The position numbers and the translations under genes were made by a program. From a bacterium (GTDB lineage Bacteria > Bacillota_I > Bacilli_A > RFN20 > CAG-826), in NCBI GenBank assembly GCA_963651465.1, contig CAVJPS010000009.1:52395-116394 (forward strand): 64,000 nt of DNA, in the 5' to 3' direction. Shown in pieces: positions 12,077 through 56,661 of the stretch (positions are counted from its first letter, which is position 1; each line of letters opens with the position of its first letter). The notes under the pieces are model-generated. The model was not told the origin of the DNA. It did not search any database and saw nothing but the letters and a program-made list of their open reading frames with translations.

Positions 12077-12157
12077 ATATAATCTCCTCATCAATATATT
12101 AACATATTATATTGTTTTATTAAAACAATAAATATTAACCACCTTTACAAATATATA

Positions 12158-14724: not shown

Positions 14725-14768
14725 ACAAAAAACGTTAAGGTTATTTCCTTAACGTTTGTTTTTTTATT
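14725..14768. terminator. bidirectional terminator between ppiB and adhE
   Basis: AACGTTAAGG-ttatttc-CTTAACGTT hairpin flanked by A and T runs. Confidence 0.7.
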
Positions 14769-17394
14769 GTCCGACTTTTGTACCTTTATAAGCACATTTT
14801 AAGATTTCTTCCATGTCTTTTACAAGAGGTACTCTTGGGTTAGCTGGTGAGCATTGATCTTCGTAAGCAAGAACTGCGATTCTTTCAATTTTAGAATTCC
14901 ATTCTGCTTCATCAATACCTAATTTATCAAATGAAGTTTCAAGTCCAATATCACGAGCTAATTCTTCACAAGCTGTAGCAAGAGCTTCAACACCTTGTTC
15001 TGGAGTTTCAGCTTTTAATCCTAATAAATGAGCAATTTCAAGATATTTCTTGTCTGCACAGTAGTGATTATATTTTGGCCATACTGATAATTTTGTTGGA
15101 ACTTGACCATTATATCTAATTACGTATGGTAAGAAGATAGAACATGTATAACCGTGAACTGTATGGAATTCAGCACCTACTTTATGTGATAAAGAGTGAG
15201 CCATACCTAAGAATGCGTTAGCAAATGCCATACCAGCAATTGTTGCAGCATTGTGCATTTTTTCACGTGCTTCTAAATCGTTTTTACCATTTTTAACACA
15301 ACGAGGTAAATATTCAAATACTAATTTGATTGCTTGTAATGCTAAACCATCAGTGTAGTCATTTGCAAGAACACTAGCATATGCCTCAATAGCGTGTGTT
15401 AAGACATCCATACCAGTCATAGCTGTTGGGCGTGCTGGTAAATTAGTTGTAAATTCAGGATCAACAATAGCAACTGTTGGAGTAAGTGAATAGTCTGTTA
15501 AAGGATATTTCTTGTTATTTGCTTTATCGGAGATAACAGCAAATGGTGTAACTTCTGAACCAGTACCAGATGTAGTAGGAATACAAATTAATTTTGATTT
15601 CTTACCTAATTCTGGATACTTAAATGCTCTTTTACGAATATCCATAAATTTTTGTTTTAAATCATCAAAGTTAACTTCTGGGTGTTCGTAGAATAACCAC
15701 ATACCTTTTGCACAGTCCATAACACTACCACCACCAAGAGCAATAATAGTATCAGGTTGGAATGAATTCATTATTTCAGTACCTTTTCTTACAGTTGAAA
15801 TATCTGGGTCAGGTTCAACTGCTGTAAATAATTGAATTGTAACATCGTTTCTTCTTAAATTTAATTGTTCAGTAATCTTATCTAAGAAACCGAATTGAAC
15901 CATTGAGTTATCTGTAACAATAAATACTTTTTCTAAACCACGGCATGATTGTAAATATTGAATTGAATTTCTTTCAAAATAGATTTTACTTGGAACTTTG
16001 AACCATTGCATAGTATTTCTTCTTTTACCTACTTTCTTGACATTTAATAAATTGACTGCTGAGATATTACCTCCAACAGAGTTATGACCATAAGAACCAC
16101 AACCTAATGTTAATGAAGGAAGGAATGAGTTATAAACATTACCAATACCACCAAATGTTGAAGGTGAATTCCAAATAATTCTCATAGCTTTTACTTTTTC
16201 ACCAAATGCATCAGCCATTGCTTGATCATGACAATGAATTGCAGCACTATGACCTAAACCATTAAATTCAACCATTTGAGCTGCTTTTTCAAATCCTTCA
16301 TTTTCGTCTTTAACTTTAAAGATTGCTAGGACTGGTGAAAGTTTTTCTCTTGATAAAGGTTCGTTGACACCAACTTCACTACATTCAGCACAAATAATTG
16401 ATGTATCTGCAGGAACTTCAAATCCAGCTTCGTGAGCAATAAATGAAGCACTCTTACCAACAATTACAGGATTTAATTTTGCTAATTGAACTTGATCTTT
16501 TGATTCAACACCAAACATATATTTTTCAAGTAATGCTTTTTCTTGTTTATTAACAAAGTAAGCTTTAAATCTCTTAAATAAATCTTTTGCTTCGTTATAA
16601 ATTTCAGCATCGATAATAGCAGCTTGTTCAGAAGCACAAATCATACCATTATCGAATGATTTAGATAATACGATATCATTAACTGCTTGTTCGACGTTTG
16701 CACTCTTATTGATATAAGAAGGAACATTACCAGCTCCAACGCCTAAAGCAGGTTTACCACATGAGTATGCAGCTTTAACCATTGCATTACCACCAGTTGC
16801 AAGAATTGTAGCAACACCAGGGTGATTCATTAATGCACTAGTTGCATCCATTGAAGGATGTTCAATCCATTGAATACAGTTTTCAGGTGCACCAGCAGCA
16901 ACAGCAGCGTCACGCATAACAATAGCTGCTAATTTTGAACTTTCTTGTGCATTTGGGTGGAAAGCAAAAATAATAGGGTTACGTGTTTTTAAACAAATTA
17001 ATGATTTAAAAATAACAGTACTAGTTGGATTTGTAACTGGAGTAATACCACATACAACACCAATTGGATCAGCGATTTCAGTAATACCTGTTACTGGATC
17101 ATCTGAAATAACTCCAACAGTTTTTAAATGACGCATGTTATTAACAACATATTCACATGCAAATAAGTTTTTAGTAGCTTTATCTTCAAAGACACCTCTA
17201 CCTGTTTCGTCAATAGCAGCTTTTGCTAAAGTACCATGGTTATCTAACCCAGCAACTGAACATTTAGCAACGATGTAATCAATCTTTTCTTGATCTAAGT
17301 TTAAAAATTCATCTAATGCTACTTGTGCTTTTGAAACCAAGCCATTAACTTCAGCATTAACTTCTTCAATAGTTAAATTCACTTTTTCAGCCAT
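14764..17394 (-). CDS. adhE: bifunctional acetaldehyde-CoA/alcohol dehydrogenase
   Basis: 876 aa with an N-terminal ALDH domain and a C-terminal Fe-ADH domain. Confidence 0.95.
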
Positions 17395-17396
17395 AT

Positions 17397-18041
17397 TTAT
17401 TCTCCTTTGATTTTGTTATTTAACCTATGTGATAGCATACCTAATGAGGCAGCTAAATCAACATTTTCAACAACGATATTATCGTTAATATTAAGATGGA
17501 CAGGAACGAAATTCCAAATTGCTTTTATATTACACTTTTGTAATCTATCAACAATACTTTGAGCGTAATCGCTTGGGACAGTAAGAATTGCAATATTAAC
17601 ATTCAATTCTTTAATCTTATCTTCAAGCTCTGAAATACTATAAATTACTTTATCATTTATAACAGTTCCAATTTTTTGGGGATTATTATCAAAACCTGCC
17701 AAAATGTTTAATCCTATTTTATTAAATCCACTATAACGTAAAATAGCACCACCAAGGCCACCAGCACCAATTAAAATAGCATTAGTAACATCGTTATAAC
17801 CTAATATGTTTTCAATACTATTAATAAGTGTATTAACGTCACGGCCACAACCTGGTTTACTATTTTCTTTACTTATAGATTGAAAGTCTTTTCTAACTTG
17901 TTCTTCCGAACATTTAAATTCATTTGCTATGGTAGCACTTGAAACAGTTAGAATACCTTCCTCTTTTAAAGAATTTAAGTATTTTAGATACGCGGGATAT
18001 CTTTCGAGTTGTCTTTTTGTAATCGTCTTAATATTACCCAT
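17397..18041 (-). CDS. rex: redox-sensing transcriptional repressor Rex
   Basis: 214 aa with an N-terminal wHTH and a Rossmann GAGGLGGAI motif. Its stop abuts the adhE start. Confidence 0.9.
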   Translation of the reverse strand: MGNIKTITKRQLERYPAYLKYLNSLKEEGILTVSSATIANEFKCSEEQVRKDFQSISKENSKPGCGRDVNTLINSIENILGYNDVTNAILIGAGGLGGAILRYSGFNKIGLNILAGFDNNPQKIGTVINDKVIYSISELEDKIKELNVNIAILTVPSDYAQSIVDRLQKCNIKAIWNFVPVHLNINDNIVVENVDLAASLGMLSHRLNNKIKGE

Positions 18042-18183
18042 AATAACTCCTTTGGTATTTTTTTACCGAAGTTAATATAACATATAATGAACTTCCGTTC
18101 AATTGATTTTAACTAAAAAAATAAAGATAACGCTTACATAAATTTAAAGAAAAATAATAATAGCGCTTTCATTAAATTGCATT

Positions 18184-18212
18184 AAAAAAAGAGGAAAAAA
18201 TTTCCTCTTTTA
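18184..18212 (-). terminator. terminator after pflA
   Basis: AGAGGAAA-aaatt-TCCTCT hairpin plus T-run. Confidence 0.6.
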
Positions 18213-18215
18213 TTC

Positions 18216-18959
18216 TTATTTATAATTACCAATTTTTAAAACATTTTCTGCGTGCTTTACACTTTCTTTTGTTGGCATATTAACATCTTTTAAAGAATAT
18301 TCAATACCAAGTTCATCATATTTTGGTAATGCAAATGGATGATAAGGTAAAACCTCTAATCTTTTAATATTATTAAATTTAGCTAAGAAGTCACTACTTT
18401 TTTGAAGTACATCTTCACTATCAGTGTATCCTGGTAATAAAACATAACGAACCCAAATTGGAAAATTTATTTCATTAAGATAATTAAATAATTCTTGAAC
18501 GTTTTTACCGTCATGGCCAGTAATTTTAGTATGTAATTCTTCATTAGGTGCTTTTAAATCTAATAATAATAAATCAGTATATTTTAATAATTCTTTAAAC
18601 TTAGAGAAGAAAGGTTCTTCAAATGTAAAAGGTCCTCCTGCAGTATCAATACAAGTAGAAAAACCTTTTTCTTTGGCTTTCTTAAATAAATCAATTAAGA
18701 AATCAATTTGAAGTAATGGTTCACCACCACTAATAGTAATACCACCATTATCTCGCCAATAAGTTTTATATCGAGCAAGTTTTGCAAGTGCTTCATCACT
18801 AGTTATAGAAGTAGCATTCTTATTACTCCAAGTTTCAGGATTGTGACAATATAAGCAACGAAATGGACATCCAGATAAGAAAAGGACGGACCTGACACCA
18901 GGTCCATCCACTAAAGCAAATGATTCGAAACTTGAATAATAGCCAATTTCACTCATCAA
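18216..18959 (-). CDS. pflA: pyruvate formate-lyase activating enzyme (radical SAM)
   Basis: 247 aa with the CPFRCLYCHN cluster motif. Confidence 0.9.
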   Translation of the reverse strand: MMSEIGYYSSFESFALVDGPGVRSVLFLSGCPFRCLYCHNPETWSNKNATSITSDEALAKLARYKTYWRDNGGITISGGEPLLQIDFLIDLFKKAKEKGFSTCIDTAGGPFTFEEPFFSKFKELLKYTDLLLLDLKAPNEELHTKITGHDGKNVQELFNYLNEINFPIWVRYVLLPGYTDSEDVLQKSSDFLAKFNNIKRLEVLPYHPFALPKYDELGIEYSLKDVNMPTKESVKHAENVLKIGNYK

Positions 18960-21221
18960 TTATAAGCTTTCATGGCAAGTTCTTGAAATAACATCTAATT
19001 GTTGTTCTTTTGTTAAATCAATGAACTTAACTGCATATCCACTAACTCTAATTGTAAAGTTTTGATATTCTTCTTTTTCTGGATGATTCATAGCATCAAT
19101 TAATTTTTCAGTACCGAATACGTTAACATTTAAGTGATGAGCATCTTGATCAAAGTAGCCGTCTAAGATTTGAGCTAAGTTAACTTTTCTTTCATCATCA
19201 TTGTGACCTAAAGCATTAGGGTTAACTGTTTGAGTATTTGAAATACCATCTAAAGCATATTCATATGGTAATTTTGCGACTGAGTTAAGTGAAGCAAGTA
19301 AACCATTCTTTTCTGCACCATATGCTGGGTTAGCACCTGGTGATAATGGTTCGCCTTGTTTTCTACCATCTGGTAAAGAACCAGTAGCCTTACCATAAAC
19401 AACGTTTGAAGTAATTGTTAAAATTGAAGTTGATGGGACAGAATCACGATATGTGTGGTGTCTTGCAATCTTGTGCATAAAGACTTTTAATAACCAAACT
19501 GCGATTTCATCAGCACGGTTGTCATCGTTACCATAACGTGGGAAATCACCAATTGTTTCAAAATCAGTGACAATGCCTGTTTCGTCACGGACACATTTTA
19601 CAGTTGCATATTTAATAGCACTTAATGAGTCAACAACGTGTGAGAAACCAGCAATACCTGTAGCAAATGATCTTTCAACATTTGTATCAATTAATGCCAT
19701 TTCAGCAGCTTCATAATAATATTTATCGTGCATATAGTGAATGACATTTAAAGTATTAACATAGATTTCAGCAAGCCATTCCATCATAGCTTCGTATTTT
19801 GGTAAGACTTCATCATATGTAAGAATTTCACTTGTAATAGGTTTAATTTCAGGTCCGACTTGTTGGTGAGTTAATTCATCAACACCACCGTTTATTGCAT
19901 ATAATAAACATTTAGCTAAGTTAGCTCTAGCACCGAAGAATTGCATTTCTTTACCAGTCTTTGTAGCACTAACACAGCAGCAGATACTATAGTCATCAGT
20001 CCAAATTGGTCTCATAACACAGTCATTTTCGTATTGAATTGAACTTGTTTTAACAGAAATTAATGCAGCGTATTTCTTGAAAGTATCAGGTAATCTACTT
20101 GACCATAAAACTGTTAAGTTTGGTTCTGGTGCAGGTCCCATATTTTCAAGTGTGTGTAAGAAACGATAGTCGTTCTTTGTAACTAATGTACGTCCATCAC
20201 TACCCATACCAGCTACTTCAAGAGTTGCCCATACTGGGTCGCCTGAGAATAATTGGTTATATGATGGAATACGTGCGAATTTAACCATTCTGAATTTCAT
20301 AACCATATGGTCAACTAATTCTTGAGCTTCTTTTTCAGTTAATGTACCAGCAGCTAAATCTCTTTCAATATAAATATCTAAGAATGTTGAAATACGTCCA
20401 ACTGACATAGCAGCACCATTTTGAGTTTTGATAGCAGCTAAGTAACCAAAGTATAACCATTGGAATGCTTCCTTAGCGTTTTTAGCTGGTTCGCTAATAT
20501 CAAAGCCATAAATTTTAGCCATTTCTTTCATTTCTTTTAAAGCTTTGATTTGCATTGAAATTTCTTCTCTTAATCTAACGACATCTTCTGTCATACCTCT
20601 TAAACCAGTATATTTAAGATTGTCTTGTTTTTCAGCAATAATATTGTCAATACCATATAAAGCAACACGACGATAGTCACCAACAATACGGCCTCTACCA
20701 TATGTATCTGGTAAGCCAGTAATAATCTTGTTGTGACGGCAACGTAACATTTCATCAGTATAAGCATCAAAGACACCATCATTGTGAGTCTTATGATATT
20801 TTGTAAAGACTTCGTGAATCTTTGGTGAAGGTGTGTAACCGTAAGCTGTACATGCTTGTTCAGCCATTTTAATACCACCATAAGGCATAAATGCTCTCTT
20901 TAATGGTTTGTCTGTTTGAAGACCAACGACTTTTTCTAAATCTTTTGTTTCTTCGTCAATATATCCAGGACCGTAAGCTGTTAATGAGGAAACAATTTCA
21001 GTTTCCATATCAAGAACTCCGCCCTTTTTTCTTTCTTCAATTTGTAATGCACTTAACTTTTTCCAAAGAATATTTGTAGCTTCAGTTGCATCCTCTAAGA
21101 ATGATTCATCTCCAAGATATGGAGTGTAGTTTTCTTGAATAAAGTCTCTAACGTTAATAGAAGTTTTCCAATTTACGCCTTTAAAACTTTTCCAAGCAGT
21201 TTCATCAAAATTTTTGATCAT
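18960..21221 (-). CDS. pflB: formate C-acetyltransferase (pyruvate formate-lyase)
   Basis: The start was reassigned to [13 protein letters not shown], which has an AAGGAGG RBS. The C-terminal glycyl-radical motif is RVSGYAV, and the catalytic CC motif is present. Confidence 0.9.
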
Positions 21222-21292
21222 ATTTGTATATCCTCCTTGATAACCTAATGTAGAATAACACTTTTTAAATATTTTTAAAACATTTTTGCTCA

Positions 21293-21327
21293 AAAATGAA
21301 AATAAAACCCCTTTCATTTTATGAAAG
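21293..21327 (-). promoter_or_regulatory. palindromic candidate operator upstream of pflB (Rex- or FNR-like half sites TGAAA/TTTCA)
   Basis: The palindrome AAAATGAAA-n11-TTTCATTTT-ATGAAA lies 70-100 nt upstream of the pflB start. Confidence 0.3.
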
Positions 21328-21371: not shown

Positions 21372-21400
21372 CAAAAAAGTAGGTTTTTGACGAACCTACT
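21372..21400 (-). terminator. terminator after glgA
   Basis: AAGTAGGTT-tttgacg-AACCTACTT hairpin plus T-run. Confidence 0.65.
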
Positions 21401-22836
21401 TATTTTTCTTTTGCTCCTCCATAAATATTTAAATATTCATCAGCAGAACGAGACCAGTCATTATTACATGACATAGCATTTAGTCTTAATTTTTTAAATA
21501 AATCTTTATTGTCGTAGCATTTAATAGCCCAGTCAATTGTATTCACAATTGCATGCTTGTCATATGCGTAAAAACCAAATCCTGTTGCAACGTTTTCATT
21601 TCCTTCAATAGCAGGAATAACAGTATCATTTAATCCACCAGTCATACGGACTAATGGTAATGTACCATAACGAAGAGCAATCATTTGGCCAATACCACAA
21701 GGTTCAAATAATGACGGCATTAAAAAGATATCACTTGATGCATAAATCATATGAGCCAATCCATCATTGTAACCAATATAAATTCCCATTTGATTTGGAT
21801 ATTCTGCTCTTAGTTTTTCAAGCTCTTGTTCAAAACCATATTCCCCACTACCAAGAACAATTAATGAAGCTCCACTTGATAAAATTTTGCGTGCTCCTTC
21901 GATGACTAAATCAGCACCTTTTTGCCAAGTTAAACGAGATACCATACCAAATAAAGGTTTGTCAGTTGGTGAAAGATGCATTTCTTCAAGTAATGTATCT
22001 TTATTTTCTTTTTTACCTTCTTCTATAGTTTTCTTAGTATATGTTTTTTTAATTTTCTTATCTTTTGCTGGATTAAATTCGACATAGTCGATACCATTTA
22101 AAACGCCACAGAAATCATAACGTCTTAATTCGAGCACTGTATGTAAATCATGTCCACTATTGTCACTTAATAATTCTTCAGCGTGAGTAGGACTTACAGT
22201 TGTAATTTTATCACAATACATAATTGCAGCTTTTAAAGTACTACATTCATTGTTGTAACGAATTGCACCATTATCGTATAATTCGTCACTTAATCCATAG
22301 TAATCATTGATAAAATAACGATTAAACATTCCTTTAAATGCTGGATTATGAATGGTTAATACAAAACGTGTATTTTTAAATACATCTTCGTATCTATTTT
22401 GTTCTTTAATTAAAACTGGTAGCATTCCAACTTGCCAGTCATGAATATGAATAATGTCAAAGCATAAATTCTGTTCTTGAATTATTTTACGAATTCCTAA
22501 AGTAAAGAAAGCAAAACGTTCATTATCGTCATCATAACCGTATAAATTGTCACGGTTAAAATACCTTACATTACCTAAAAGGTAATAAGTAATGCCGTCA
22601 ATTTCAGTTTTATAAACTTCACATTCTTGATTACGCCATGATAATTGAACACTATATTTTGCTAAAGGTGTTACTCTAATATTATCATTATTACGAATTT
22701 TATCGTAATACGGAATAACAATACTAACTTCGTGACCTTTCTTAACGAGTTCAGCTGATAAAGCATGAACTACATCAGCTAGACCACCAGTTTTAGCTAA
22801 AGGGGTAGATTCACTTGCACACATTAAAATTTTCAT
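21400..22836 (-). CDS. glgA: glycogen synthase
   Basis: 478 aa with the KTGGLADV N-terminal motif. Confidence 0.9.
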   Translation of the reverse strand: MKILMCASESTPLAKTGGLADVVHALSAELVKKGHEVSIVIPYYDKIRNNDNIRVTPLAKYSVQLSWRNQECEVYKTEIDGITYYLLGNVRYFNRDNLYGYDDDNERFAFFTLGIRKIIQEQNLCFDIIHIHDWQVGMLPVLIKEQNRYEDVFKNTRFVLTIHNPAFKGMFNRYFINDYYGLSDELYDNGAIRYNNECSTLKAAIMYCDKITTVSPTHAEELLSDNSGHDLHTVLELRRYDFCGVLNGIDYVEFNPAKDKKIKKTYTKKTIEEGKKENKDTLLEEMHLSPTDKPLFGMVSRLTWQKGADLVIEGARKILSSGASLIVLGSGEYGFEQELEKLRAEYPNQMGIYIGYNDGLAHMIYASSDIFLMPSLFEPCGIGQMIALRYGTLPLVRMTGGLNDTVIPAIEGNENVATGFGFYAYDKHAIVNTIDWAIKCYDNKDLFKKLRLNAMSCNNDWSRSADEYLNIYGGAKEK

Positions 22837-22837
22837 A

Positions 22838-23953
22838 TTAGATAATATCTCCTTGTTTTACGTAAAGTGGATTTTTAGATGTTCCATTTAATTTTTTAAC
22901 AGTAATAACTCGAGCGTACTTATCAACAATACAATTTTCTAAAATAGTATCGTTACCTACAACACAATATCCTAGAATAACAGAATTTTTAATAACAGCG
23001 CCTTCACCAATTACTACTCCACGAGAAATAACACTATTTTCAACTTTCCCGTTAATAATTGCACCATTTGCAACAAACGAATTTGACACATCAGCCTTAC
23101 GGCCATAACGAGTTGGAGGTGTGTCGTGAGTAACTGTATAAATTGGCCACTCGGGTTTAAATAATTCTTTACGAGCATCGTAAGATAATAATTCAGTTGA
23201 TACTTCTAAGTATTTTGCCATTGAATCAACTATACGAACAAAGCCATCATAACGATATCCACGAATATCGTATTTTTTTACATTGTAAGCTAAGAACTCA
23301 CTTAAACTAAAAACCGCGGATTGTTCACTAGATTCTTTTAATATGCGTTTTAAAGTTGACATTGACATAACGTAACTTTCCATTGAAATATCAGCTTCGT
23401 CATCAATACCACGATTTTGACGAATATGATGTACTTTATTAGAATCTTCGTTAAATAATAATTTATCATAACCAACACTATCAACTTTAGCATTAGTCAT
23501 ATGAGTATAAACAATAGTTATGTCAGCGTTACTCTTAATATGTTCATCAATTACTTTAGAATAATCAATAGCACATAAGAAATGAACTGGAGCAATAACA
23601 ACTAAATCAGCACTACTTGCTAATAAGAACCAGTCATTAGCACGAATGTTATTCAAGTCATTATTGTAACGAGGGTTATGATAATATTCCTCATTTTGCA
23701 TAATGACGTTTTTACCAATTTTAGTATTTAAGTTCCATGAGTTATGGAAACCTAAATGTTTATTTAAAGAACGGATATGATGTTTACATAACACACCAAT
23801 TTCATCAATTCCTGAATTAGAAAAATTCGATAAAGTAAAATCAATAAAAGCAAAACGTCCTAAGAAGGAAGTAGATGCTAATGAACGTGATGAAGTTAAT
23901 TCACCAATATCAGGAGAAACGTGTAAATTACAAAAGCCAATAACTCTTCTCAT
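22838..23953 (-). CDS. glgD: glucose-1-phosphate adenylyltransferase regulatory subunit GlgD
   Basis: 371 aa GlgC paralogue. It lacks the canonical GGxGxRL motif. Firmicutes-type glgCD pair. Confidence 0.8.
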   Translation of the reverse strand: MRRVIGFCNLHVSPDIGELTSSRSLASTSFLGRFAFIDFTLSNFSNSGIDEIGVLCKHHIRSLNKHLGFHNSWNLNTKIGKNVIMQNEEYYHNPRYNNDLNNIRANDWFLLASSADLVVIAPVHFLCAIDYSKVIDEHIKSNADITIVYTHMTNAKVDSVGYDKLLFNEDSNKVHHIRQNRGIDDEADISMESYVMSMSTLKRILKESSEQSAVFSLSEFLAYNVKKYDIRGYRYDGFVRIVDSMAKYLEVSTELLSYDARKELFKPEWPIYTVTHDTPPTRYGRKADVSNSFVANGAIINGKVENSVISRGVVIGEGAVIKNSVILGYCVVGNDTILENCIVDKYARVITVKKLNGTSKNPLYVKQGDII

Positions 23954-23964
23954 AATTTATCCTC

Positions 23965-25077
23965 CTATTTTATAAAAAGGCAGACATCTTCGCCTTTAAC
24001 ATTTACATCAGTATTATCAGGAACAATAGCGTTGTTTCCAATAATCGCTTTATTAATACGACAATTTTGACCAATTTGAGCACCAGGCATAATTACTGAA
24101 TCTGTGATAATAGAACCTTTACCAATTAAAGTTTCATTAAAGATAACTGAGTGATTAACTTTACCTAAGATAATTGCTCCTTGGTTAACAATAGAATCTT
24201 TTACTTCTGCTAATTTACCTACGTATTGGGGTACCGATAAAGTATCTTCAGAATAGATTCTAAAATTATTTGAATAAATATCAACATCATCTTCTCCGTC
24301 AAGTAAATCCATGTTTGCTTGCCATAAAGATTTAATAGTTCCAACGTCACGCCAGTAACCTTCAAATTTATATGCCATTAATTTTTTATTTTTCCCAAGC
24401 ATATATGGAATAATATCTTTACCAAAATCATGACTTGATTCTGGTTTGTTATGATCTAAGGTTAAAGCTCTTTTAAGTTCTTTATAATTAAAAATATAAA
24501 TACCCATTGAAGCAAGTGTTGATTTTGGTTTTTTAGGCTTTTCTTCAAATTCATAAATTGACATATCGTGATTAACATTCATAATACCGAATCTACTAGC
24601 TTCACTAATATCAACATTAATGACAGCAATAGTAGCGTCAGCATTAGTTTCTTTATGATAATCAAGCATTCTCTCGTAATTCATTTTATAGATGTGATCA
24701 CCAGATAAAATTAATACATATTGAGGCTTTATTGATTCTAAAAAGTCTAAATTTTGATAAATTGCATCAGCTGTACCTTCATACCAATTCATACCAGTTT
24801 CAGTTTGTCTTGCTGGTAAAAGAGAAATTAATGAACGGACTCCATCAAGTCCCCATTTATTTCCATCTCCGATATAATTGTTTAAATCGACTGATTCATA
24901 TTGAGTTAATATTCCAACGACATCAATTCCACTATTAGCACAGTTTGAAATTGGAAAGTCAATGATTCTATATTTTCCTCCATAACTAACTGCAGGTTTT
25001 GCTACTTTTTTAGTAAGGCCTTCTAACCTAGTACCTTTACCTCCTGCAAGTAACATAGCAACAATTTCTTTTCCCAT
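23965..25077 (-). CDS. glgC: glucose-1-phosphate adenylyltransferase
   Basis: 370 aa with LAGGKGTRL. Confidence 0.9.
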
Positions 25078-25140
25078 ATTGTTCCCCCTATTATTTGTTT
25101 TTTTAATTTACAAAATTATTTTAACATAAAACCTTATATT

Positions 25141-25186
25141 ATTTTAATAATATATGAAAAAAAGTGTCGATAAAAATCGACACTAA
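25141..25186 (-). terminator. terminator after the SMC-like ATPase gene
   Basis: AGTGTCGA-taaaaa-TCGACACT hairpin overlapping the stop codon, followed by a T-run on the minus strand. Confidence 0.7.
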
Positions 25187-28100
25187 TTCTTAATTTTATT
25201 TTCTTCAGCATATAATCTAACACTTGATGAACTCTTATCGTGTAATACGACTAATGTTTCATCAACAAGTTCACTAATATCTGCAACTTTGTCAGATGGT
25301 GCTGATAAAATAACTTGTAAACCAAATTTACCTAATAAACGAATAGATTCTTTGATTCTGCCTCTATCCATTTTAGAGAACGCTTCATCAAAGATAATAA
25401 GTCTAAATGAGTTACCTAAATCGCCTGGTTCATTAACACGGTATAATTGAGCAAATGATGCAAGAACTGCAATATAGAAAGGTGTTTGTGTTTCACCACC
25501 GGATTTTTTCTTAATTGTTTTTGATAAACGTTGTTCAACACCATCTTTATCAGTGACAACAATATCAAAATCAAGATAAGAACGATAATCTGTGAATTTT
25601 TCAACATTAGCTAAAACTGCAGCATTACGATCACCATGATCACCAACATCAACAATTTGACGGAATAAATCATCCATTACTTCTTTATATTTATTAACGA
25701 AGGCACTATCATCTTCACCCATTTCAAGTAACAAGTCATCTTTAATCATATCGTAATAACGACGATATTCAACTGATGGCTTTACAATAAAACGATATTT
25801 ATCGTTACCGAATTGTGAACTTTCTAATGCAATGTTAAGATCATCAATTTGTGTTTCAACAGTTTCAATAGCTGTTCTTAATTTATTGATGAAATCATCT
25901 TTAAATTCTTTTGTAGCTTTACGGTATGAATCATCAATTGCTGCTTGATATTGTGGTAATTTAATATCACGCATTTCAGTTAATTCATTATCATAAACAT
26001 GGTTATCTGGTCCATCAACATCGTAAGTTAAACGATAATCACGAACATAGTCTTTACGAAGTTTTACAACATTGTTCTTTAATGAGTTAGCAAAGTATTG
26101 AACTTTAGATAAACTAATCTTTGTTTCACCAATAATATCAATTGTTGATTTACCTTCGTCAACTAATTTTTGATATTCAACATTACCAATTTCATCAACA
26201 AAGAAACCATCATATGCATTTTCTAAGCGATCTTTACGTCCTTGTGCATTAGCTTCTTCAGCAGGTAATTTGTCTTCTTTGTATGTTGAAATTTGGTTTT
26301 GTAAATTACCTTTTTCAAGAATTAAGTTTTCTTTATTAGAAGCCAATTCTTGTAAATCACGTTCAAGATCTTCGATACGTTGATCAAATGATTTAATTTG
26401 TGTTAAATCATGCTTGCCTAATTCTTCGTTAATGTAAGCTAAGTTACCTTCAATAGCTTTTATTTGAGAAGTCTTTTCGATAAAACTAATAGAAGAAGAA
26501 ACTTCGTATGAGTTAATAACTTCTAAGTCACTTGCAACTGAAATAACATTACGAAGTGAGCAATATGTTTCAGTTAATTTTTGACTATCGATAACATCTT
26601 GGTGTTTTGCTTTAATTTGTTCAGCACCAATACGGCGGCCAATATAAGAAACATTATATGTCTCAGGTCTTAAAACAGATAATGTGAAATTACGATATAA
26701 ATCACATTCTTTAGTAATACCATTACCAGAGTTACGAGCTTCCTTAACATTTTGACACTTCATTAATCGACCAATTAAGAAGTTACTATAAATACGAGCT
26801 CCCACGTGATCAGTAATAATTTCTTCAGCAAGAGATCCTCTTTCACAAGCAAAATTCTTTTCGATAATCTTTGCTTGGTCAACTAAAGATGTACCATAGA
26901 AACTTGTTCTAGAACATAATTCTTTTAAAATTTCATGAGCTTCTAAATAATATTCAGGTTCAACAAATAAATTGAATTTTTGGTTATTTAAGAATCCTTC
27001 AATTGCTTTACCCCATTTTTCATCTCTAATGTCAATAAGGTCAGCAAATATAGCCACTTCAACTGGTTTTCCATGACGGCGAGTTAAAGCACCAGCCAAT
27101 TCATTTTTAACAAATGTTAAACCACGAACATAAGACTTACCACCATTTTGCATATCACTTTCTTGTTGCTTTAATATAGCAGTTTTTTGTTCGTTTAGAG
27201 TAATAATCTTATTTAAATTAACATTTAAATAAGAAATATGACGACGGAAGTTTTCTAGTAAAGTACGCCAGTTTTGTAAAATTTCAACTGAAACAGTACT
27301 TAAATCAACTAAGAACTTATCTTTGAATAATAAACATTGATCACGAACTTCACGAGAAATATCCATTAAAGTAGAGATATCGTCCATATTTTCTTCACTA
27401 ACTTTGCTTAAATCAATATTTTCTAAAGTTTGGTTAATTGATTCTGCACATTCTAAATAAGAAGTAGCATAACGCATTAAGTTAGAACGAACTGTATCTT
27501 CGTTATCGTGAATTTCTTTTAATTGATCTTCATATTTCTTCTTTTCTTCCCATAATTCATCAGTTAACTTATATGTGTCATTAGATAACTTATCAGCAGT
27601 TAACTTTTCTTTTTTACGAGTAAGTTGTGAAGTTTGATCTTCATTATAGGCTAAATCAGCTTCGATTTCTTTTAAACGTTTTTCAGCTGAACTAATAGCT
27701 TCTTGGTATGTTCTAATACGAGCTAAGTCATTTTCGTATTCAGCTCTTTCAATAATATATGAATATAAAGTTTCATTTTTACGTTGTGAAACTTCTTTTT
27801 GATAAGCGGCATTAATTTCATTTAAACGGCTAATACGTTGAGCCATTGTATTAGCTTCGACTTGTAATTTCTTATATTGCAAAATATTTTCTTGCATTGA
27901 AGTAATATTAATATTTGCTTGAGAATCACAAATGTATTCAGTAATAAACGTTTCAATATCAGTAATTGGTGTAAACGAAACAGCCTTCTTAAATAATGAG
28001 AAGTATTTATCTTTAAGACCACCAAAACGACGTTTTAATAAGTCTTGATATTGCTTATTAGTATCTAGGAAACGATATTTACCAGCATAATTTTCTTGGA

Positions 28101-28563
28101 AATATGCATTTAATGTTTTATACTCCATTGGAATGTTATCTTTAACAAATTCATTTTCAGGAATTTTATCATCTAAACAGAAGAAACGATGCTCATCAGT
28201 TCCATCTGGGAACGAATCAAAGACAATACCAAATGTAAATGATGTATCATTAACATCATCATAGAATTCCATTGCAATGTATGATGTAAAACGACCTGGT
28301 CTTAAATATCTAAAGCCACCATCTTCAGCATCACCTAATTCACATCTTAAATATCCTTTAAGAGTACGAGCTGATTTTTCCGTTGCAGCTTTGTTAAAGA
28401 AACGACCACTTGTATCACCTAAAAGTAATACTTGCATAGCGTCGATAAGAGTTGATTTACCCGAACCATTTAGACCTGTTAAGAAAACTAAAGGACTAAA
28501 TTCAATAGTTTGATTCCAGAAATAGTGCCAGTTAATTAATTTCATTTTCTTTAATGATTTCAT
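25183..28563 (-). CDS. SMC/SbcC-like ATPase, JetC/MksB-like
   Basis: 1126 aa. Walker A GLNGSGKST is at the N-terminus. A very long heptad-rich coiled-coil middle follows. The C-terminus carries the signature SGGETQ, Walker B LIIFDEAF and the D-loop. The start overlaps the upstream stop (TAATG). Confidence 0.75.
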   Translation of the reverse strand: MKSLKKMKLINWHYFWNQTIEFSPLVFLTGLNGSGKSTLIDAMQVLLLGDTSGRFFNKAATEKSARTLKGYLRCELGDAEDGGFRYLRPGRFTSYIAMEFYDDVNDTSFTFGIVFDSFPDGTDEHRFFCLDDKIPENEFVKDNIPMEYKTLNAYFQENYAGKYRFLDTNKQYQDLLKRRFGGLKDKYFSLFKKAVSFTPITDIETFITEYICDSQANINITSMQENILQYKKLQVEANTMAQRISRLNEINAAYQKEVSQRKNETLYSYIIERAEYENDLARIRTYQEAISSAEKRLKEIEADLAYNEDQTSQLTRKKEKLTADKLSNDTYKLTDELWEEKKKYEDQLKEIHDNEDTVRSNLMRYATSYLECAESINQTLENIDLSKVSEENMDDISTLMDISREVRDQCLLFKDKFLVDLSTVSVEILQNWRTLLENFRRHISYLNVNLNKIITLNEQKTAILKQQESDMQNGGKSYVRGLTFVKNELAGALTRRHGKPVEVAIFADLIDIRDEKWGKAIEGFLNNQKFNLFVEPEYYLEAHEILKELCSRTSFYGTSLVDQAKIIEKNFACERGSLAEEIITDHVGARIYSNFLIGRLMKCQNVKEARNSGNGITKECDLYRNFTLSVLRPETYNVSYIGRRIGAEQIKAKHQDVIDSQKLTETYCSLRNVISVASDLEVINSYEVSSSISFIEKTSQIKAIEGNLAYINEELGKHDLTQIKSFDQRIEDLERDLQELASNKENLILEKGNLQNQISTYKEDKLPAEEANAQGRKDRLENAYDGFFVDEIGNVEYQKLVDEGKSTIDIIGETKISLSKVQYFANSLKNNVVKLRKDYVRDYRLTYDVDGPDNHVYDNELTEMRDIKLPQYQAAIDDSYRKATKEFKDDFINKLRTAIETVETQIDDLNIALESSQFGNDKYRFIVKPSVEYRRYYDMIKDDLLLEMGEDDSAFVNKYKEVMDDLFRQIVDVGDHGDRNAAVLANVEKFTDYRSYLDFDIVVTDKDGVEQRLSKTIKKKSGGETQTPFYIAVLASFAQLYRVNEPGDLGNSFRLIIFDEAFSKMDRGRIKESIRLLGKFGLQVILSAPSDKVADISELVDETLVVLHDKSSSSVRLYAEENKIKN

Positions 28564-29204
28564 TAATCTTCACCTCCATAACTAGAATTTAAACGATCTA
28601 ATGCTTCACTCATTGCAGCAATTTTTTGATTGTCAACTGCAAATGTAATTGAAGGTAAGATATAGAAAGAAACGTTACCTTCATCAAATGAACCAGTAAC
28701 TTTTGAAATAATATTGTGTTGATAAGCAAAACGCAAGCAACGTCCTAGTAAACGTCCTGTTAATTTCTTACCTTGCATTACAATACCATGGTCAAGCATA
28801 AATCTTAATAACTCGCCTGTAGTTAAATAAACATTTTTACCTGAACCTAAAGTTGACTCACTTTGTTCATCGTTTTGTTCTTCATAAATAAATCTTAATG
28901 TAAATAAGATAAGAGAAATTTCACGATCAATTTTTAAACGGTTTTGATCATAATTGTTTTTAATAGCAATGACACCATTGCCAGTATCTTTATCAATTGT
29001 CCAACCAGCATATTTTAAGTAAATTTCAAACATTTCGTAATAGCGTTCAATAAAACGATAATCAGAACTTACTTTAATCATTTTATCTCTAGAATCGTAA
29101 TATTCACGAACAATGAATGATTCACTTAGTAAATTATTAACAACTTCACTAAACATTCTTTGGTCAGCAGTTGATAACTTTTCATATTCTTCTTCGAATA
29201 ACAT
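28563..29204 (-). CDS. JetB/MksE-like (DUF4194-type) small subunit
   Basis: 213 aa acidic protein lying between the kleisin-like and ATPase genes. Size and position match JetB/MksE. Assignment is by architecture, not by a motif hit. Confidence 0.55.
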   Translation of the reverse strand: MLFEEEYEKLSTADQRMFSEVVNNLLSESFIVREYYDSRDKMIKVSSDYRFIERYYEMFEIYLKYAGWTIDKDTGNGVIAIKNNYDQNRLKIDREISLILFTLRFIYEEQNDEQSESTLGSGKNVYLTTGELLRFMLDHGIVMQGKKLTGRLLGRCLRFAYQHNIISKVTGSFDEGNVSFYILPSITFAVDNQKIAAMSEALDRLNSSYGGED

Positions 29205-29205
29205 A

Positions 29206-30639
29206 CTAATTTAATTTCTCCTTTCTTCTAAATGTAAAGTTTGGAAGGATATATCCTTGAGAATGAATTTTTCCTTCATCTTGTATAATTTCGTAAAAAC
29301 ATTTTTCGTCGTCTTTCTTAAGAGAACCTAAGATAAGAAGAACAAATGCTTCAAAGTTAGGAAGTGGTACATCTCCAATAAAGATTTCATCTTCTCCTTG
29401 GAATGCTCTTTCCATAAATTCATAAATCATATCGTCAGTATATGATGATTGTGCTTCTCGTAAGAAACTTTCCATCATATAATCCCCAGCTTCTTCTGGT
29501 GTAGATACTAATTCCAAAGGCTCATATTCTTCTCGTAATGAACGAATAATAGGAAGAGTAATTGAATCCGGATCAATAAATCCTTGAGCCGTAATATTAA
29601 TACTTTTTTGCATTTCAGTAAGAATTTGGGCCAACCCAATTCCTTCACGATTTGCAACTGCGTATGATTTAAAAATATTTTCAAGGTGACCTTTAATCGA
29701 TTTATCAGTGCTATTAAGATAAATAATCTTAGTAGCAGAAGATTTAGTATATTCACTATGTTTTTGGTCAATATCACCAATCATACTATTAATTTGTTCG
29801 TAAAGATCACAAATATAGTTGATTTTTTCAATTACGTCAGCTTCAGCTTCCTCTCTTGGCTTTTGACGTCCAAAAGAAATTGATTGCATAACAATTTTTG
29901 AACGAATTTCATCATTGCGCATCCACTTTTGTAAAATATTAATAATTGGTCGTTTAAATTTTGTAACCGAATCAAAAGTTTTAAGTGGGTGATACAATCT
30001 ATCAGCAATTTTTACTTTGTATTCATCAAAATGGTCATGTAAGATTTCGTTAGTTGTAAATATCTTTCCTAATTTATTTTGGAACATTCGAATTTGGTGT
30101 CCGATTGTTATTAATTCAACTTTTAAATTCTTAGTATTTTCGTATACACGCATTAAAGTAGCATACATAAATTCATCTTGTTCTTCATCCTCGAGTTTAA
30201 GTTCACTATAAGTTGAATGAACTAAAGAATTATAAGCAGTTTCAGTATCAGAAACAAAATTGTTAATAACGGATAACATTTGAATTGAATATGTTGGTAA
30301 AATAATATATTCATCAAATGAATCAGTACGAATTTCAGTTTCAATCCATCCAGTTTCTTCTAAACGTCGGACAATATAAGCTACCTTGGAAGGTAATGTA
30401 TTTAATTGTTCTCTATCGTCTTCTTCTGGAATATCAGCTTCATCATCATCTAACTCTAAATTCATGACTAAATCAGTTGCTTTCTCACGAAGCATTCTAA
30501 CATAGTCATCTTTTTTAATAGACATTTCTTCTGTTTGAAGTGATTTATATAAGACGATTAATGCCATCGCATATATTTCTTTATTTTTACTCGAGAGAAT
30601 GGAAAAAAAGTTCTCTGGTATAAAATCAAATAGCTTCAA
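29206..30639 (-). CDS. JetA/MksF-like (DUF3375-type) kleisin-like subunit
   Basis: 477 aa. It uses a TTG start with a GGGAG RBS and an in-frame stop two codons upstream. It is the first gene of a three-gene coupled operon. Size and order match JetA. Confidence 0.55.
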   Translation of the reverse strand: MKLFDFIPENFFSILSSKNKEIYAMALIVLYKSLQTEEMSIKKDDYVRMLREKATDLVMNLELDDDEADIPEEDDREQLNTLPSKVAYIVRRLEETGWIETEIRTDSFDEYIILPTYSIQMLSVINNFVSDTETAYNSLVHSTYSELKLEDEEQDEFMYATLMRVYENTKNLKVELITIGHQIRMFQNKLGKIFTTNEILHDHFDEYKVKIADRLYHPLKTFDSVTKFKRPIINILQKWMRNDEIRSKIVMQSISFGRQKPREEAEADVIEKINYICDLYEQINSMIGDIDQKHSEYTKSSATKIIYLNSTDKSIKGHLENIFKSYAVANREGIGLAQILTEMQKSINITAQGFIDPDSITLPIIRSLREEYEPLELVSTPEEAGDYMMESFLREAQSSYTDDMIYEFMERAFQGEDEIFIGDVPLPNFEAFVLLILGSLKKDDEKCFYEIIQDEGKIHSQGYILPNFTFRRKEKLN

Positions 30640-30869
30640 TTTAGTATTCTCCCTTCATTTTCTTTATTATTATATCATAATAATAAGTATACATTAAGTG
30701 ATTTTTTTACTAGTTATGTATTTTTGTTATAATCAAATTAATTTAGTTATTTTTTAAAAAATATTTAACTTTTATTCTAAAATTTATTGCAATAATTCTT
30801 TTAAAATGTTATTATCTATTAGCGTGTGTTATTACACATTCGGTATTTTCATTAAGGGAGGTTAAAAAT

Positions 30870-55953: not shown

Positions 55954-56661
55954 TTATTCTTCAACCGGAGTAGCTTCTAGCTTTGCTTTACGTTTGTCTT
56001 CTTTTAAATAGAATAAAATTGCAAATACAATTAAACATATTTCTCCAAACATTGATAATAAGAATAAATAATTAAATAATCCTAGAACTGGTCCAATTAC
56101 TGAGAAAAAGAACATTAATGCTCCTGATAATAATAAATGTACATTTTTGTTCTTTTTAATTTGAATAATACCAATTACAATTAATGGAATGATTGAAATT
56201 ACATTAAATACAGTAGGGATTTTTTGAACAATCTTTGGTGTAACTTCTTTATCAACTACTAAACGAGATACTCCTGCAAGTTCAGTAACTTTGTATGTTG
56301 CTAAGAATGAATTAACAATACCAATAGCAATGAAAACACCAGTTAATACAAAGAATGTAATTTTTAAAGGCTTTTTCATTTCAATAGATTCTTCTGCAAT
56401 TATGAATAATAACGGAACAAGTCCTCCATGTAAGATGAATCTTACTCGACTGACAAACAACATTTTTTCAGCACTAATAACTGAACCTAAACTAATGATG
56501 AATGCGTCAAAAAATAATCCAAAAGTTATAATTGCTGTCATTAAAATAAATAATGATTTAGTTTTAACAAATTTATAAACTAAATAAACAAGCAATGCTA
56601 ACTCGATAACACTAACAATCCATACGACTGGTACTGTAAGTGCATTAAAAATTTTTTCCAT
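55954..56661 (-). CDS. polytopic membrane protein, unknown function
   Basis: 235 aa with about 7 TM helices and a charged C-terminus. Confidence 0.5.
   Translation of the reverse strand: MEKIFNALTVPVVWIVSVIELALLVYLVYKFVKTKSLFILMTAIITFGLFFDAFIISLGSVISAEKMLFVSRVRFILHGGLVPLLFIIAEESIEMKKPLKITFFVLTGVFIAIGIVNSFLATYKVTELAGVSRLVVDKEVTPKIVQKIPTVFNVISIIPLIVIGIIQIKKNKNVHLLLSGALMFFFSVIGPVLGLFNYLFLLSMFGEICLIVFAILFYLKEDKRKAKLEATPVEE

What the first reader, a model, noticed from the sequence alone, without database searches (positions are those of the whole stretch)
25183..30639. Wadjet/MksBEF-like JetA-JetB-JetC operon lacking a JetD/MksG nuclease partner
Three genes form one tightly coupled unit. The first is 477 aa with a TTG start, the second 213 aa, and the third a 1126-aa SMC/SbcC-type ATPase. 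Successive genes are joined by a one-nucleotide gap and then a TAATG overlap, and the unit has its own intrinsic terminator. The ATPase has Walker A GLNGSGKST, a very long coiled coil, an ABC signature SGGETQ and Walker B LIIFDEAF. This is the JetC/MksB architecture, and the sizes and order of the two upstream genes match JetA (kleisin-like, DUF3375) and JetB (DUF4194). Canonical Wadjet needs JetD (Toprim/DUF2220) for plasmid cleavage. Here the downstream neighbour is a terminator followed by glgC, and the upstream neighbour is rpmB. No JetD-like ORF exists in either flank. The unit therefore appears inserted as an island between core genes. It may be a JetD-less condensin-type MksBEF. It could be a defence module whose effector is encoded elsewhere. 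It could also be an uncharacterised variant.
Basis: partly seen in the sequence, partly recalled or inferred. Interest (0 to 1): 0.8.

Follow-up and report, generated by a model that had tools for sequence, protein, structure and literature searches.

The report
Nuclease-less Wadjet (JetABC) core operon
Three genes encode a Wadjet-type DNA-looping SMC motor (JetA, JetB, JetC) without its DNA-cutting partner JetD, and the trio has been inherited vertically next to the glycogen genes across a large clade of uncultured low-GC Bacilli, so it looks like a tamed chromosome-organising complex, not a mobile defence island.

Summary
Three tightly coupled minus-strand genes encode JetA (477 aa, TTG start), JetB (213 aa) and JetC (1126 aa), followed by an intrinsic terminator. 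glgC lies downstream and rpmB lies divergently upstream.

No JetD exists in the 64-kb window. None was found within about 10 kb of the operon in 76 related loci. The JetD profile used was validated on an independent JetD (E = 2e-54).

The "inserted island" idea is not supported:
- There is no composition break.
- jetABC-glgCDA synteny holds in 61 of 76 relatives, down to 36% JetC identity.
- JetC distances track those of GlgA, GlgD and GlgC (Mantel r = 0.78-0.88).
- dN/dS is 0.003-0.07, the same as for the glg genes.
- The ATPase motifs are invariant in 71 clade JetCs.

The clade is monophyletic (100/100) and nested among JetD-bearing relatives. The nearest one found has 33% JetC identity and a full jetABCD operon. 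JetD was therefore probably lost.

Best reading: a domesticated, nuclease-less Wadjet, equivalent to an MksBEF-type condensin. This kind is already known (P. aeruginosa MksBEF), so it is a new member, not a new system.

Two things remain untested: whether JetD is encoded elsewhere in the genome, and whether Smc-ScpAB is present. A JetB N-terminal motif resembling the JetD-docking motif is retained.

The parts
29206..30639 (-). jetA: kleisin subunit, 477 aa, TTG start
   Evidence: Pfam JetA PF18982, E = 8e-95, covering residues 30-473. PADLOC JetA1, 9e-132, full length. The start codon is confirmed by alignment with homologue N-termini.
28563..29204 (-). jetB: KITE subunit (DUF4194, MukE-like), 213 aa. 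It starts 1 nt after the jetA stop.
   Evidence: Pfam DUF4194, 7e-14. PADLOC JetB1, 2e-66. A profile matches solved JetB chains 8dk1_E and 8as8_C at 1e-11. The N-terminus MLFEEEY belongs to a near-invariant clade motif MFEE-x-[FY].
25183..28563 (-). jetC: SMC-like ABC ATPase, 1126 aa. Its ATG overlaps the jetB stop (TAATG).
   Evidence: PADLOC JetC1, E = 0, 1129 bits, residues 1-1123. Pfam AAA_29, SbcC_Walker_B and MukB N-terminal. A profile matches solved type I JetC 8as8_A at 1e-60. Residues 201-450 contain no P or G, followed by a P/G-containing hinge-like segment at 451-650.
28450..28476 (-). Walker A codons (GLNGSGKST, JetC residues 30-38)
   Evidence: G30, N32, G35, K36, S37 and T38 are conserved in 69 of 71 clade JetCs. 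The other two sequences have a gap at these alignment columns.
25486..25503 (-). ABC signature codons (SGGETQ, residues 1021-1026)
   Evidence: S, G, G, E and Q are conserved in 71 of 71 clade JetCs. S1021 and G1023 are invariant in the JetD-bearing outgroups as well.
25363..25401 (-). Walker B and D-loop codons (LIIFDEAFSKMD, residues 1055-1066)
   Evidence: FDEAFSK.D is conserved in 71 of 71 clade JetCs.
25163..25184 (-). Intrinsic terminator hairpin immediately after the jetC stop, followed by a T-run
   Evidence: 9-bp stem with 4 G-C pairs and a 4-nt loop, then TTTTTTT.
30649..30674 (-). Ribosome-binding site GAAGGGAG (30649-30656) and a TGnTATAAT-like extended -10 element (30669-30674) upstream of jetA. 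The promoter is putative.
   Evidence: Read directly from the sequence. The consensus scan did not list a full -35/-10 pair on this strand.
23965..25077 (-). glgC: the conserved downstream neighbour. This is context and not a subunit. glgD and glgA follow at 21400-23953.
   Evidence: Pfam NTP_transferase, 2e-71. glgC follows jetC in 61 of 76 related loci, sometimes only 4-30 nt after the jetC stop.

Best explanation
This is a nuclease-less derivative of a Wadjet system. JetA (kleisin), JetB (KITE dimer) and JetC (SMC-like ATPase) are expected to assemble into the usual MukBEF-like ATP-driven DNA-loop-extruding complex. The Toprim nuclease JetD that turns this motor into a plasmid cutter is missing.

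The trio is not a mobile defence island. It is a fixed, vertically inherited core operon of a large clade of uncultured low-GC Bacilli, labelled in the databases as Bacilli, Erysipelotrichales or "Mollicutes"-like MAGs. In this clade it sits next to, and in some genomes probably in one transcript with, the glycogen genes glgCDA.

The most likely function is that of an MksBEF-type condensin: loop extrusion on the host chromosome for chromosome folding and segregation. It may act beside Smc-ScpAB or possibly instead of it.

Shown: gene identity, intact ATPase motifs, absence of a linked JetD, deep synteny, co-divergence with neighbours, strong purifying selection, and nesting among JetD-bearing relatives.

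Inferred: complex assembly, loop extrusion and the chromosomal role.
For: Identity:
- Pfam and PADLOC matches.
- Profile matches to solved type I JetC and JetB structures.

No JetD:
- A profile built from five annotated JetDs finds nothing (best E = 0.56) in any six-frame ORF of the window or of loci L001-L077.
- The profile recovers each seed when that seed is left out (E from 2e-49 to 2.5e-5).
- It detects an independent JetD at 2e-54.
- PADLOC finds nothing in the window ORFs that lack a Pfam match.

Vertical, core-like inheritance:
- 76 loci with 36-73% JetC identity, all from MAGs labelled mostly as uncultured Bacilli, Erysipelotrichales or Mollicutes.
- jetABC-glgCDA order holds in 61 of 76.
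- rpmB is divergent upstream in 25.
- The synteny is also seen on contigs longer than 1 Mb.
- Mantel r for JetC against GlgA, GlgD and GlgC is 0.88, 0.87 and 0.78, with p <= 0.002. JetC diverges at the same rate as GlgA, mean p-distance 0.52 against 0.53.
- dN/dS is 0.003-0.07 for jetA, jetB and jetC, equal to or below the glg genes.
- Walker A, signature and Walker B motifs are invariant in 71 clade JetCs.
- There is no GC break, and no relative was found on viral contigs.

Derived loss:
- The clade is monophyletic in 100 of 100 bootstraps.
- Its successive sister groups include a Clostridia MAG with a complete jetABCD operon at 33% JetC identity.
- JetD-bearing and JetD-less systems are interleaved outside the clade.

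Precedent:
- The field's own hypothesis is that loss of the nuclease locks a Wadjet into a segregation role (bioRxiv 10.1101/2025.03.10.642339).
Against: - No functional data exist for any member, and all relatives are uncultured.
- Only the window and about 10 kb around each related operon could be read. A JetD gene elsewhere in these genomes is not excluded.
- Whether the clade has Smc-ScpAB could not be tested.
- The JetB N-terminus is almost invariant across the clade (MFEE-x-[FY]). It closely resembles that of the nearest JetD-bearing relative (MTWEEQY). It also resembles, in character, the IFDR motif said to bind the JetD aCAP domain. An aromatic residue is also kept near the JetC region that aligns with E. 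coli F919, the JetD-docking residue. Retention of possible docking elements after loss of the partner is unexplained, unless they have another role.
- The linkage is not universal among related Bacilli. Some glgC relatives at 61-65% identity lack jetABC at this locus.
Confidence: 0.55

Rival explanations
1. It is still a plasmid-restriction Wadjet system. Its nuclease, either JetD or a substitute effector, is encoded at an unlinked site in the genome and recruited in trans.
For: - The near-invariant JetB N-terminal aromatic-acidic motif is shared with the nearest JetD-bearing relative. It is reminiscent of the JetD-binding IFDR motif.
- An aromatic residue is conserved near the JetC position that aligns with the JetD-docking F919.
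- Only about 10 kb on each side was inspected in relatives.
Against: - None of the 76 related loci, nor the 64-kb window, has a JetD-like ORF.
- In every JetD-bearing system seen here, jetD immediately follows jetC.
- A stable split arrangement held across a clade this deep has no precedent known to me.
- The same N-terminal and aromatic features also occur in other JetD-less systems, for example Agathobacter MFEYME and FYKKY. They may therefore be structural.
- Core-genome behaviour is atypical for defence genes.
Confidence: 0.2
2. It acts against plasmids or other episomes without cutting them. For example, it might fully extrude, compact, silence or mis-segregate small circular DNA, in analogy with Smc5/6 silencing of extrachromosomal DNA.
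For: - JetABC alone carries the circular-DNA shape and size sensing in Wadjet (PMC10586767).
- The ATPase is intact and under strong constraint.
- Retained partner-like motifs could serve a non-nuclease partner.
- A fast-evolving membrane protein follows jetC in about half of the relatives.
Against: - No evidence exists that any JetABC restricts plasmids without JetD. All four subunits are reported as essential for restriction.
- The extra membrane protein is absent from the window and from many relatives, and PADLOC gives it no significant match (one weak hit, E = 1e-4, to a candidate-system model in one of three members tested).
- Vertical, housekeeping-like evolution.
Confidence: 0.15
3. 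It is a recently acquired defence island, or a decaying remnant of a Wadjet operon that has just lost jetD.
For: - The operon has its own terminator and lies between unrelated core genes.
- Elsewhere, Wadjet systems are scattered and transferred horizontally.
Against: - No composition break.
- The 105-nt jetC-glgC spacer holds only a terminator and the glgC ribosome-binding site, with no jetD remnant.
- Synteny is conserved down to 36% JetC identity.
- dN/dS is 0.003-0.07.
- All catalytic motifs are invariant.
- No mobile-element genes lie nearby.
Confidence: 0.03

Closest known systems
Type I Wadjet / JetABCD (E. coli GF4-3, P. aeruginosa PA14; C. glutamicum MksBEFG)
   Same: - Same three core families in the same order jetA-jetB-jetC with translational coupling.
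- JetC and JetB profiles match the solved type I chains at 1e-60 and 1e-11.
- Same ATPase motifs.
- The nearest JetD-bearing relative found (Clostridia MAG, 33% JetC identity) uses the same PF18982 JetA family.
   Different: - No JetD, so no known means of cleaving plasmids.
- It sits in a conserved core-genome position instead of a variable region.
- JetB lacks the roughly 30-45-residue N-terminal extension of the proteobacterial JetBs.
- The JetA profile does not reach the solved JetA chains.
MksBEF condensin of Pseudomonas aeruginosa (nuclease-less Muk-like SMC complex; Petrushenko 2011, Lioy 2020)
   Same: - A kleisin-KITE-SMC operon without MksG/JetD.
- It is thought to derive from JetABCD by loss of the nuclease and to act on the chromosome.
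- This is the functional model adopted here.
   Different: - No close sequence relationship was tested here.
- MksBEF is described as scattered by horizontal transfer. This system is vertically inherited through a whole clade of Bacilli and linked to glgCDA.
- A chromosomal role is experimentally shown for P. aeruginosa. Here it is only inferred.
MukBEF of gamma-proteobacteria
   Same: - A distantly related SMC-kleisin-KITE complex (MukB matches at 5e-15 by profile).
- It is a clade-wide, vertically inherited chromosomal condensin, thought to descend from a Wadjet-like ancestor.
   Different: - MukBEF replaced Smc-ScpAB. Whether that happened here is unknown.
- The present proteins are still plainly Wadjet-type by sequence.
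Other JetD-less jetABC loci seen here (Agathobacter rectalis 251-kb replicon; Desulfoscipio geothermicus; Salipiger plasmid)
   Same: jetA-jetB-jetC with no annotated or detectable JetD nearby.
   Different: - They are unrelated lineages (17-28% JetC identity), each apparently an independent loss.
- None shows the glgCDA linkage.

Membership tests
Wadjet defence system (JetABCD) | JetA kleisin subunit | tested here: met
   Pfam PF18982, 8e-95. PADLOC JetA1, 9e-132.
Wadjet defence system (JetABCD) | JetB KITE subunit (DUF4194) | tested here: met
   Pfam PF13835, 7e-14. PADLOC JetB1, 2e-66. PDB JetB at 1e-11 by profile.
Wadjet defence system (JetABCD) | JetC SMC-like ATPase with intact Walker A, signature and Walker B motifs | tested here: met
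   PADLOC JetC1, E = 0. Motifs are invariant in the clade.
Wadjet defence system (JetABCD) | JetD Toprim/aCAP nuclease encoded with the operon | tested here: not met
   There is no JetD-like ORF in the window or within about 10 kb in 76 relatives. The profile was validated. The jetC-glgC spacer is 105 nt. Presence elsewhere in the genome could not be tested.
Wadjet defence system (JetABCD) | Restriction of small circular plasmids | not testable with these tools
   This needs transformation or cleavage assays.
MksBEF-type condensin (nuclease-less Muk-like SMC complex) | Operon of kleisin, KITE and SMC-like ATPase in F-E-B order, with no MksG/JetD | tested here: met
MksBEF-type condensin (nuclease-less Muk-like SMC complex) | Maintained as a host gene under purifying selection, with a functional ATPase | tested here: met
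   dN/dS 0.003-0.07. Co-divergence with neighbours. Invariant motifs.
MksBEF-type condensin (nuclease-less Muk-like SMC complex) | Contribution to chromosome organisation or segregation | not testable with these tools
   This needs Hi-C, ChIP or genetics. It is inferred by analogy with P. aeruginosa MksBEF.
Defence island or mobile element cargo | Variable genomic location, atypical composition, and neighbouring defence or mobility genes | tested here: not met
   Uniform GC of about 30%. The neighbours are rpmB, rpe, rsgA, glgCDA and pflB. Synteny is conserved. No viral-contig relatives were found.
Sole condensin replacing Smc-ScpAB (MukBEF-like takeover) | Absence of smc, scpA and scpB from the same genomes | not testable with these tools
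   No Smc, ScpA or ScpB gene lies in the window, and no Smc-like large Walker-A ORF other than JetC lies in L001-L084.

The most novel reading that the evidence does not exclude
In this clade of reduced-genome, uncultured Bacilli, the JetD-less JetABC may have become the principal, or only, chromosome condensin and displaced Smc-ScpAB. That would be a second, independent MukBEF-style takeover, caught at a stage where the complex is still recognisably Wadjet by sequence. The retained JetB N-terminal motif would then have been re-used for a new partner.
Probability: 0.15. Interest if true: 0.8.

Novelty: new member of a known kind. Interest (0 to 1): 0.4.

Why it matters
The field currently supposes that MukBEF and MksBEF arose when a Wadjet plasmid-defence system lost its nuclease and was domesticated for chromosome maintenance. 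This locus gives a clean natural example consistent with that route:
- The clade is monophyletic and still scores as Wadjet JetA, JetB and JetC.
- It sits phylogenetically among JetD-bearing systems.
- It has no linked JetD.
- It evolves like a housekeeping operon in a fixed chromosomal position.

It therefore gives a set of sequences in which to ask what changes, and what does not, when an SMC defence motor is repurposed. One example is the retained JetB N-terminal motif. If Smc-ScpAB turns out to be absent from these genomes, the case would become considerably more important.

It also has a practical consequence. Defence-system annotators that see JetA, JetB and JetC hits in these gut and digester Bacilli should not count them as Wadjet immunity.

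Tried and rejected
1. **Positional replacement of smc.** I asked whether jetABC sits in the rnc-smc-ftsY slot. The conserved flanking ORFs in distant relatives turned out to be a pullulanase, a PlsC-type acyltransferase and membrane proteins, not rnc or ftsY. Rejected.

2. **A fourth subunit replacing JetD.** A 285-348-aa protein with an N-terminal transmembrane hairpin lies between jetC and glgC in about half of the relatives.
   - The groups are related: hhalign probability above 99% for three groups and 86-87% for two more.
   - The protein has no Pfam match passing curated cut-offs and only one weak PADLOC hit.
   - It evolves very fast and is absent from the window.
   - It is not needed to explain the window. 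Noted only.

3. **Decay of JetD-docking elements.** Inconclusive.
   - The proteobacterial IFDR lies on an N-terminal extension that Firmicute JetBs lack.
   - Clade JetBs keep an invariant MFEE motif shared with a JetD-bearing relative.
   - E. coli JetC F919 aligns to a variable loop.

4. **Smc or ScpAB in the window and fetched loci.** None found. This is uninformative, because it is only a small part of each genome.

5. **JetA profile against solved structures.** No match.

6. **Relatives on viral contigs.** None.

7. **Literature on SMC content of RF39, RFN20 or Tenericutes-like lineages.** Nothing relevant.

8. **A first tree script.** It timed out and was rewritten.


Full report
**Observation**

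The three ORFs exist exactly as described, on the minus strand:
- 29206-30639, 477 aa, TTG start.
- 28563-29204, 213 aa.
- 25183-28563, 1126 aa.

The junctions are TAG-T-ATG and TAATG. The TTG start is the true start: homologues begin at the same aligned position (M[KNS]LF...), and a GAAGGGAG ribosome-binding site lies 9 nt upstream. A 9-bp hairpin followed by TTTTTTT abuts the jetC stop at 25184-25163. Walker A (GLNGSGKST), signature (SGGETQ) and Walker B (LIIFDEAF) are present at residues 30-38, 1021-1026 and 1055-1062.

**Identity**

- The 477-aa protein is Pfam JetA (PF18982, E = 8e-95).
- The 213-aa protein is DUF4194/JetB (7e-14).
- The ATPase matches AAA_29, SbcC_Walker_B and the MukB N-terminal domain.
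- PADLOC gives JetA1 (9e-132), JetB1 (2e-66) and JetC1 (E = 0, 1129 bits, full length).
- Profiles built with outgroup sequences match the solved type I JetC (8as8_A, 1e-60; PA14 8dk2_C, 2e-53) and JetB (1e-11). They match type II JetC (1e-16) and MukB (5e-15) less well.
- The JetA profile does not reach the solved JetA chains.
The family is PF18982, formerly DUF5716.

**Surroundings**

The window is ordinary core chromosome at about 30% GC with no composition break. Its genes are:
- trmB, coaX, tex and leuS.
- Two Endonuclease_1 proteins.
- adhE, rex and pflAB.
- glgA, glgD and glgC, then jetCBA, then rpmB (divergent).
- A 213-aa gene with no Pfam match, then rpe, rsgA, rlmN and a partial RsmB/F-like methyltransferase.
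- gmk, eno and the atp operon.
- An ABC-FtsX transporter and a DUF5677 protein.

No mobility, defence, Smc, ScpA or ScpB gene is present.

**Is JetD really absent?**

I built a JetD profile from five annotated JetDs found next to jetC on plasmids of Cohnella, Rossellomorea, Butyrivibrio, Erythrobacter and Variovorax.
- It finds nothing in any six-frame ORF of at least 50 aa in the window or in loci L001-L077. The best non-seed E-value is 0.56.
- It recovers each seed when that seed is left out, at E from 2e-49 to 2.5e-5.
- It detects an independent JetD at 2e-54.
- PADLOC finds nothing in the window ORFs without a Pfam match.
- The jetC-glgC spacer is 105 nt and holds only the terminator and the glgC ribosome-binding site.

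**Relatives**

- The exact JetC occurs on one Logan contig. Two NCBI MAGs of the same species (GCA_963623825.1, GCA_963632345.1) carry a glgC-identical locus with the same gene order and lengths.
- A genome-collection scan returned 76 loci with 36-73% JetC identity. All are MAGs, labelled mostly as Bacilli, Erysipelotrichales, Mollicutes, Tenericutes or Candidatus Onthovivens, with a few bins under other names.
- In 61 of the 76, glgC-glgD-glgA follow jetC. In several the gap is only 4-30 nt, which suggests co-transcription. The window instead has a terminator.
- rpmB lies divergently upstream within 3 kb in 25 of 61 evaluable loci, the nearer relatives.
- Distant relatives have a pullulanase and an acyltransferase upstream instead.
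- The arrangement recurs on contigs longer than 1 Mb.
- The protein databases hold hundreds of such JetCs. There are 985 hits at E <= 1e-10, and the top 120 are all at least 50% identical. There are 3204 50%-identity clusters at E <= 1e-3.
- No relative lies on viral contigs.

**Vertical or horizontal?**

- Across all pairs of loci, JetC distance correlates with GlgA (Mantel r = 0.88), GlgD (0.87) and GlgC (0.78), all with p <= 0.002.
- JetC diverges at the same rate as GlgA, with mean p-distance 0.52 against 0.53.
- dN/dS between close pairs is 0.003-0.07 for jetA, jetB and jetC, the same as or lower than for glgC, glgD and glgA.
- All ATPase motifs are invariant in 71 clade JetCs.
- The A-B and B-C junctions are translationally coupled throughout the clade.

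This is the behaviour of a housekeeping operon, not of a defence island.

**Sampling that does not depend on JetC**

I sampled through glgC homologues.
- At 100%, 72% and 69% GlgC identity, jetABC is upstream.
- At 63%, one locus has a JetC-like gene convergent with glgA.
- Two loci at 63-65%, and cultured Thomasclavelia at 61%, lack jetABC and have unrelated upstream genes.

The linkage therefore defines a bounded clade. No empty rpmB-glgC site was seen.

**Polarity**

In a neighbour-joining tree, the 74 clade JetCs are monophyletic in 100 of 100 bootstraps. The successive sister groups are:
- A JetD-less fragment (33% identity).
- A Clostridia MAG with a complete jetA (PF18982)-jetB-jetC-jetD (PF09983) operon (33% identity).
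- Desulfoscipio (no JetD) together with Rossellomorea (JetD).
- Agathobacter (no JetD) together with Butyrivibrio (JetD).

JetD is thus patchy outside the clade, and the clade is nested among JetD-bearing systems. This fits a loss of JetD at or before the base of the clade. Bulleidia extructa, a cultured member of the Erysipelotrichales, is reported to have all four genes (PMC12786226).

**Mechanism**

By homology with solved JetABC and MukBEF complexes, the expected assembly is as follows.
- JetC dimerises through its hinge.
- JetA bridges the JetC heads and dimerises through its N-terminal domain.
- A JetB dimer binds the middle of JetA.
- ATP hydrolysis drives loop extrusion.

Without JetD there is no known cleavage step. 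All four subunits are reported as essential for plasmid restriction.

The literature already treats P. aeruginosa MksBEF as a JetABCD that lost JetD and works on the chromosome (PMC10586767). It also proposes that loss of the nuclease locks a Wadjet into a segregation role. I therefore read this operon as a domesticated, MksBEF-type condensin (confidence about 0.55). Assembly, loop extrusion and the chromosomal role are inferred, not shown.

**What does not fit neatly**

- Clade JetBs have a nearly invariant N-terminus, MFEE-x-[FY]. It is very like that of the JetD-bearing Clostridia relative, MTWEEQY. It is similar in character to the IFDR motif that binds the JetD aCAP domain in type I systems.
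- The proteobacterial motif sits on a 30-45-residue extension that Firmicute JetBs lack, so homology of the motifs is uncertain.
- E. coli JetC F919, which docks JetD, aligns to a variable loop. There the clade keeps an aromatic residue in an F..KY motif, but so do both JetD-bearing and JetD-less outgroups.

These tests are inconclusive. They keep alive the rival that a nuclease or another partner is supplied in trans (0.2), and the rival of a cleavage-independent anti-episome role (0.15). Recent insertion or decay is effectively excluded (0.03).

**Limits**

Two decisive facts therefore remain open: whether JetD is encoded elsewhere, and whether Smc-ScpAB is present. Both can be checked directly on the named MAGs and on the >1-Mb contigs.

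**Verdict**

- The identification as JetABC without a linked JetD is confirmed.
- The "inserted island" inference is refuted.

The object is a new, clade-wide and vertically inherited member of the known class of nuclease-less Wadjet/MksBEF complexes. Interest is moderate (0.4). It would rise substantially if these genomes prove to lack Smc-ScpAB.

Noticed in passing
L006-L008, L016-L022, L026, L033-L048, L051-L058, L066-L077 (between jetC and glgC); absent from window 25078-25182: A fast-evolving protein of 285-348 aa with an N-terminal transmembrane hairpin sits between jetC and glgC in about half of the related loci. It has no Pfam match passing curated cut-offs and only one weak PADLOC hit (E = 1e-4, one member). 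The sequence groups are linked by hhalign, above 99% for three groups and 86-87% for two more. It appears ancestral at this position and lost in the window's lineage. Whether it relates to JetABC or to glycogen metabolism is unknown.
   Followed up: partly
L033, L036, L038-L047, L069-L072, L075, L076 (immediately after jetC): A second small family of about 145-160 aa, hydrophobic and apparently membrane-embedded (one member read), follows jetC directly in 18 distant relatives. It lies upstream of the 300-aa protein described above.
   Followed up: partly
L012, L074, L030, L027, L025, L023 (jetC-glgC junction): In several relatives glgC starts only 4-30 nt after the jetC stop. jetABC and glgCDA are then probably one transcript. 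The window instead has a 105-nt spacer with a terminator.
   Followed up: partly
window 10397-12094 (-) and 12182-14143 (-): Two tandem large proteins (565 and 653 aa) each carry an Endonuclease_1 (PF04231) domain. They may be nucleases for nucleotide scavenging; secretion signals were not examined.
   Followed up: no
window 56762-57934 (-); L017-L020, L026, L055, L058 upstream of jetA: A DUF5677 protein (390 aa) lies 26 kb from the operon in the window. In one subclade of relatives, a DUF5677 homologue (about 356 aa; confirmed by Pfam in L017, inferred from ORF size and position in the others) sits divergently right upstream of jetA.
   Followed up: no
window 14764-21317 (-): The adhE-rex-pflA-pflB block lies downstream of glgA in the window, where many relatives have leuS next (some followed by tex and/or coaX). 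This suggests a lineage-specific rearrangement or insertion downstream of the glycogen genes.
   Followed up: no
window 61453-63843 (-), 42152-43396 (-), 4261-5199 (+), 55954-56661 (-), 57931-58590 (-): Several sizeable ORFs (796, 414, 312, 235 and 219 aa) have no Pfam match. The first three also have no PADLOC match.
   Followed up: partly
L080 (Agathobacter rectalis NZ_CP143948.1), L083 (Salipiger NZ_CP014597.1), L100 (Desulfoscipio geothermicus), L098: Other unrelated lineages also carry jetABC with no JetD next to it. In Agathobacter, a gamma-carbonic anhydrase follows jetC. Loss of JetD therefore seems to have happened repeatedly.
   Followed up: partly
L097 9771-13110 (-): In one relative sampled through glgC (63% GlgC identity), a JetC-like gene lies convergent with glgA instead of upstream of glgC. 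The gene is rearranged but still linked to the glycogen operon.
   Followed up: no
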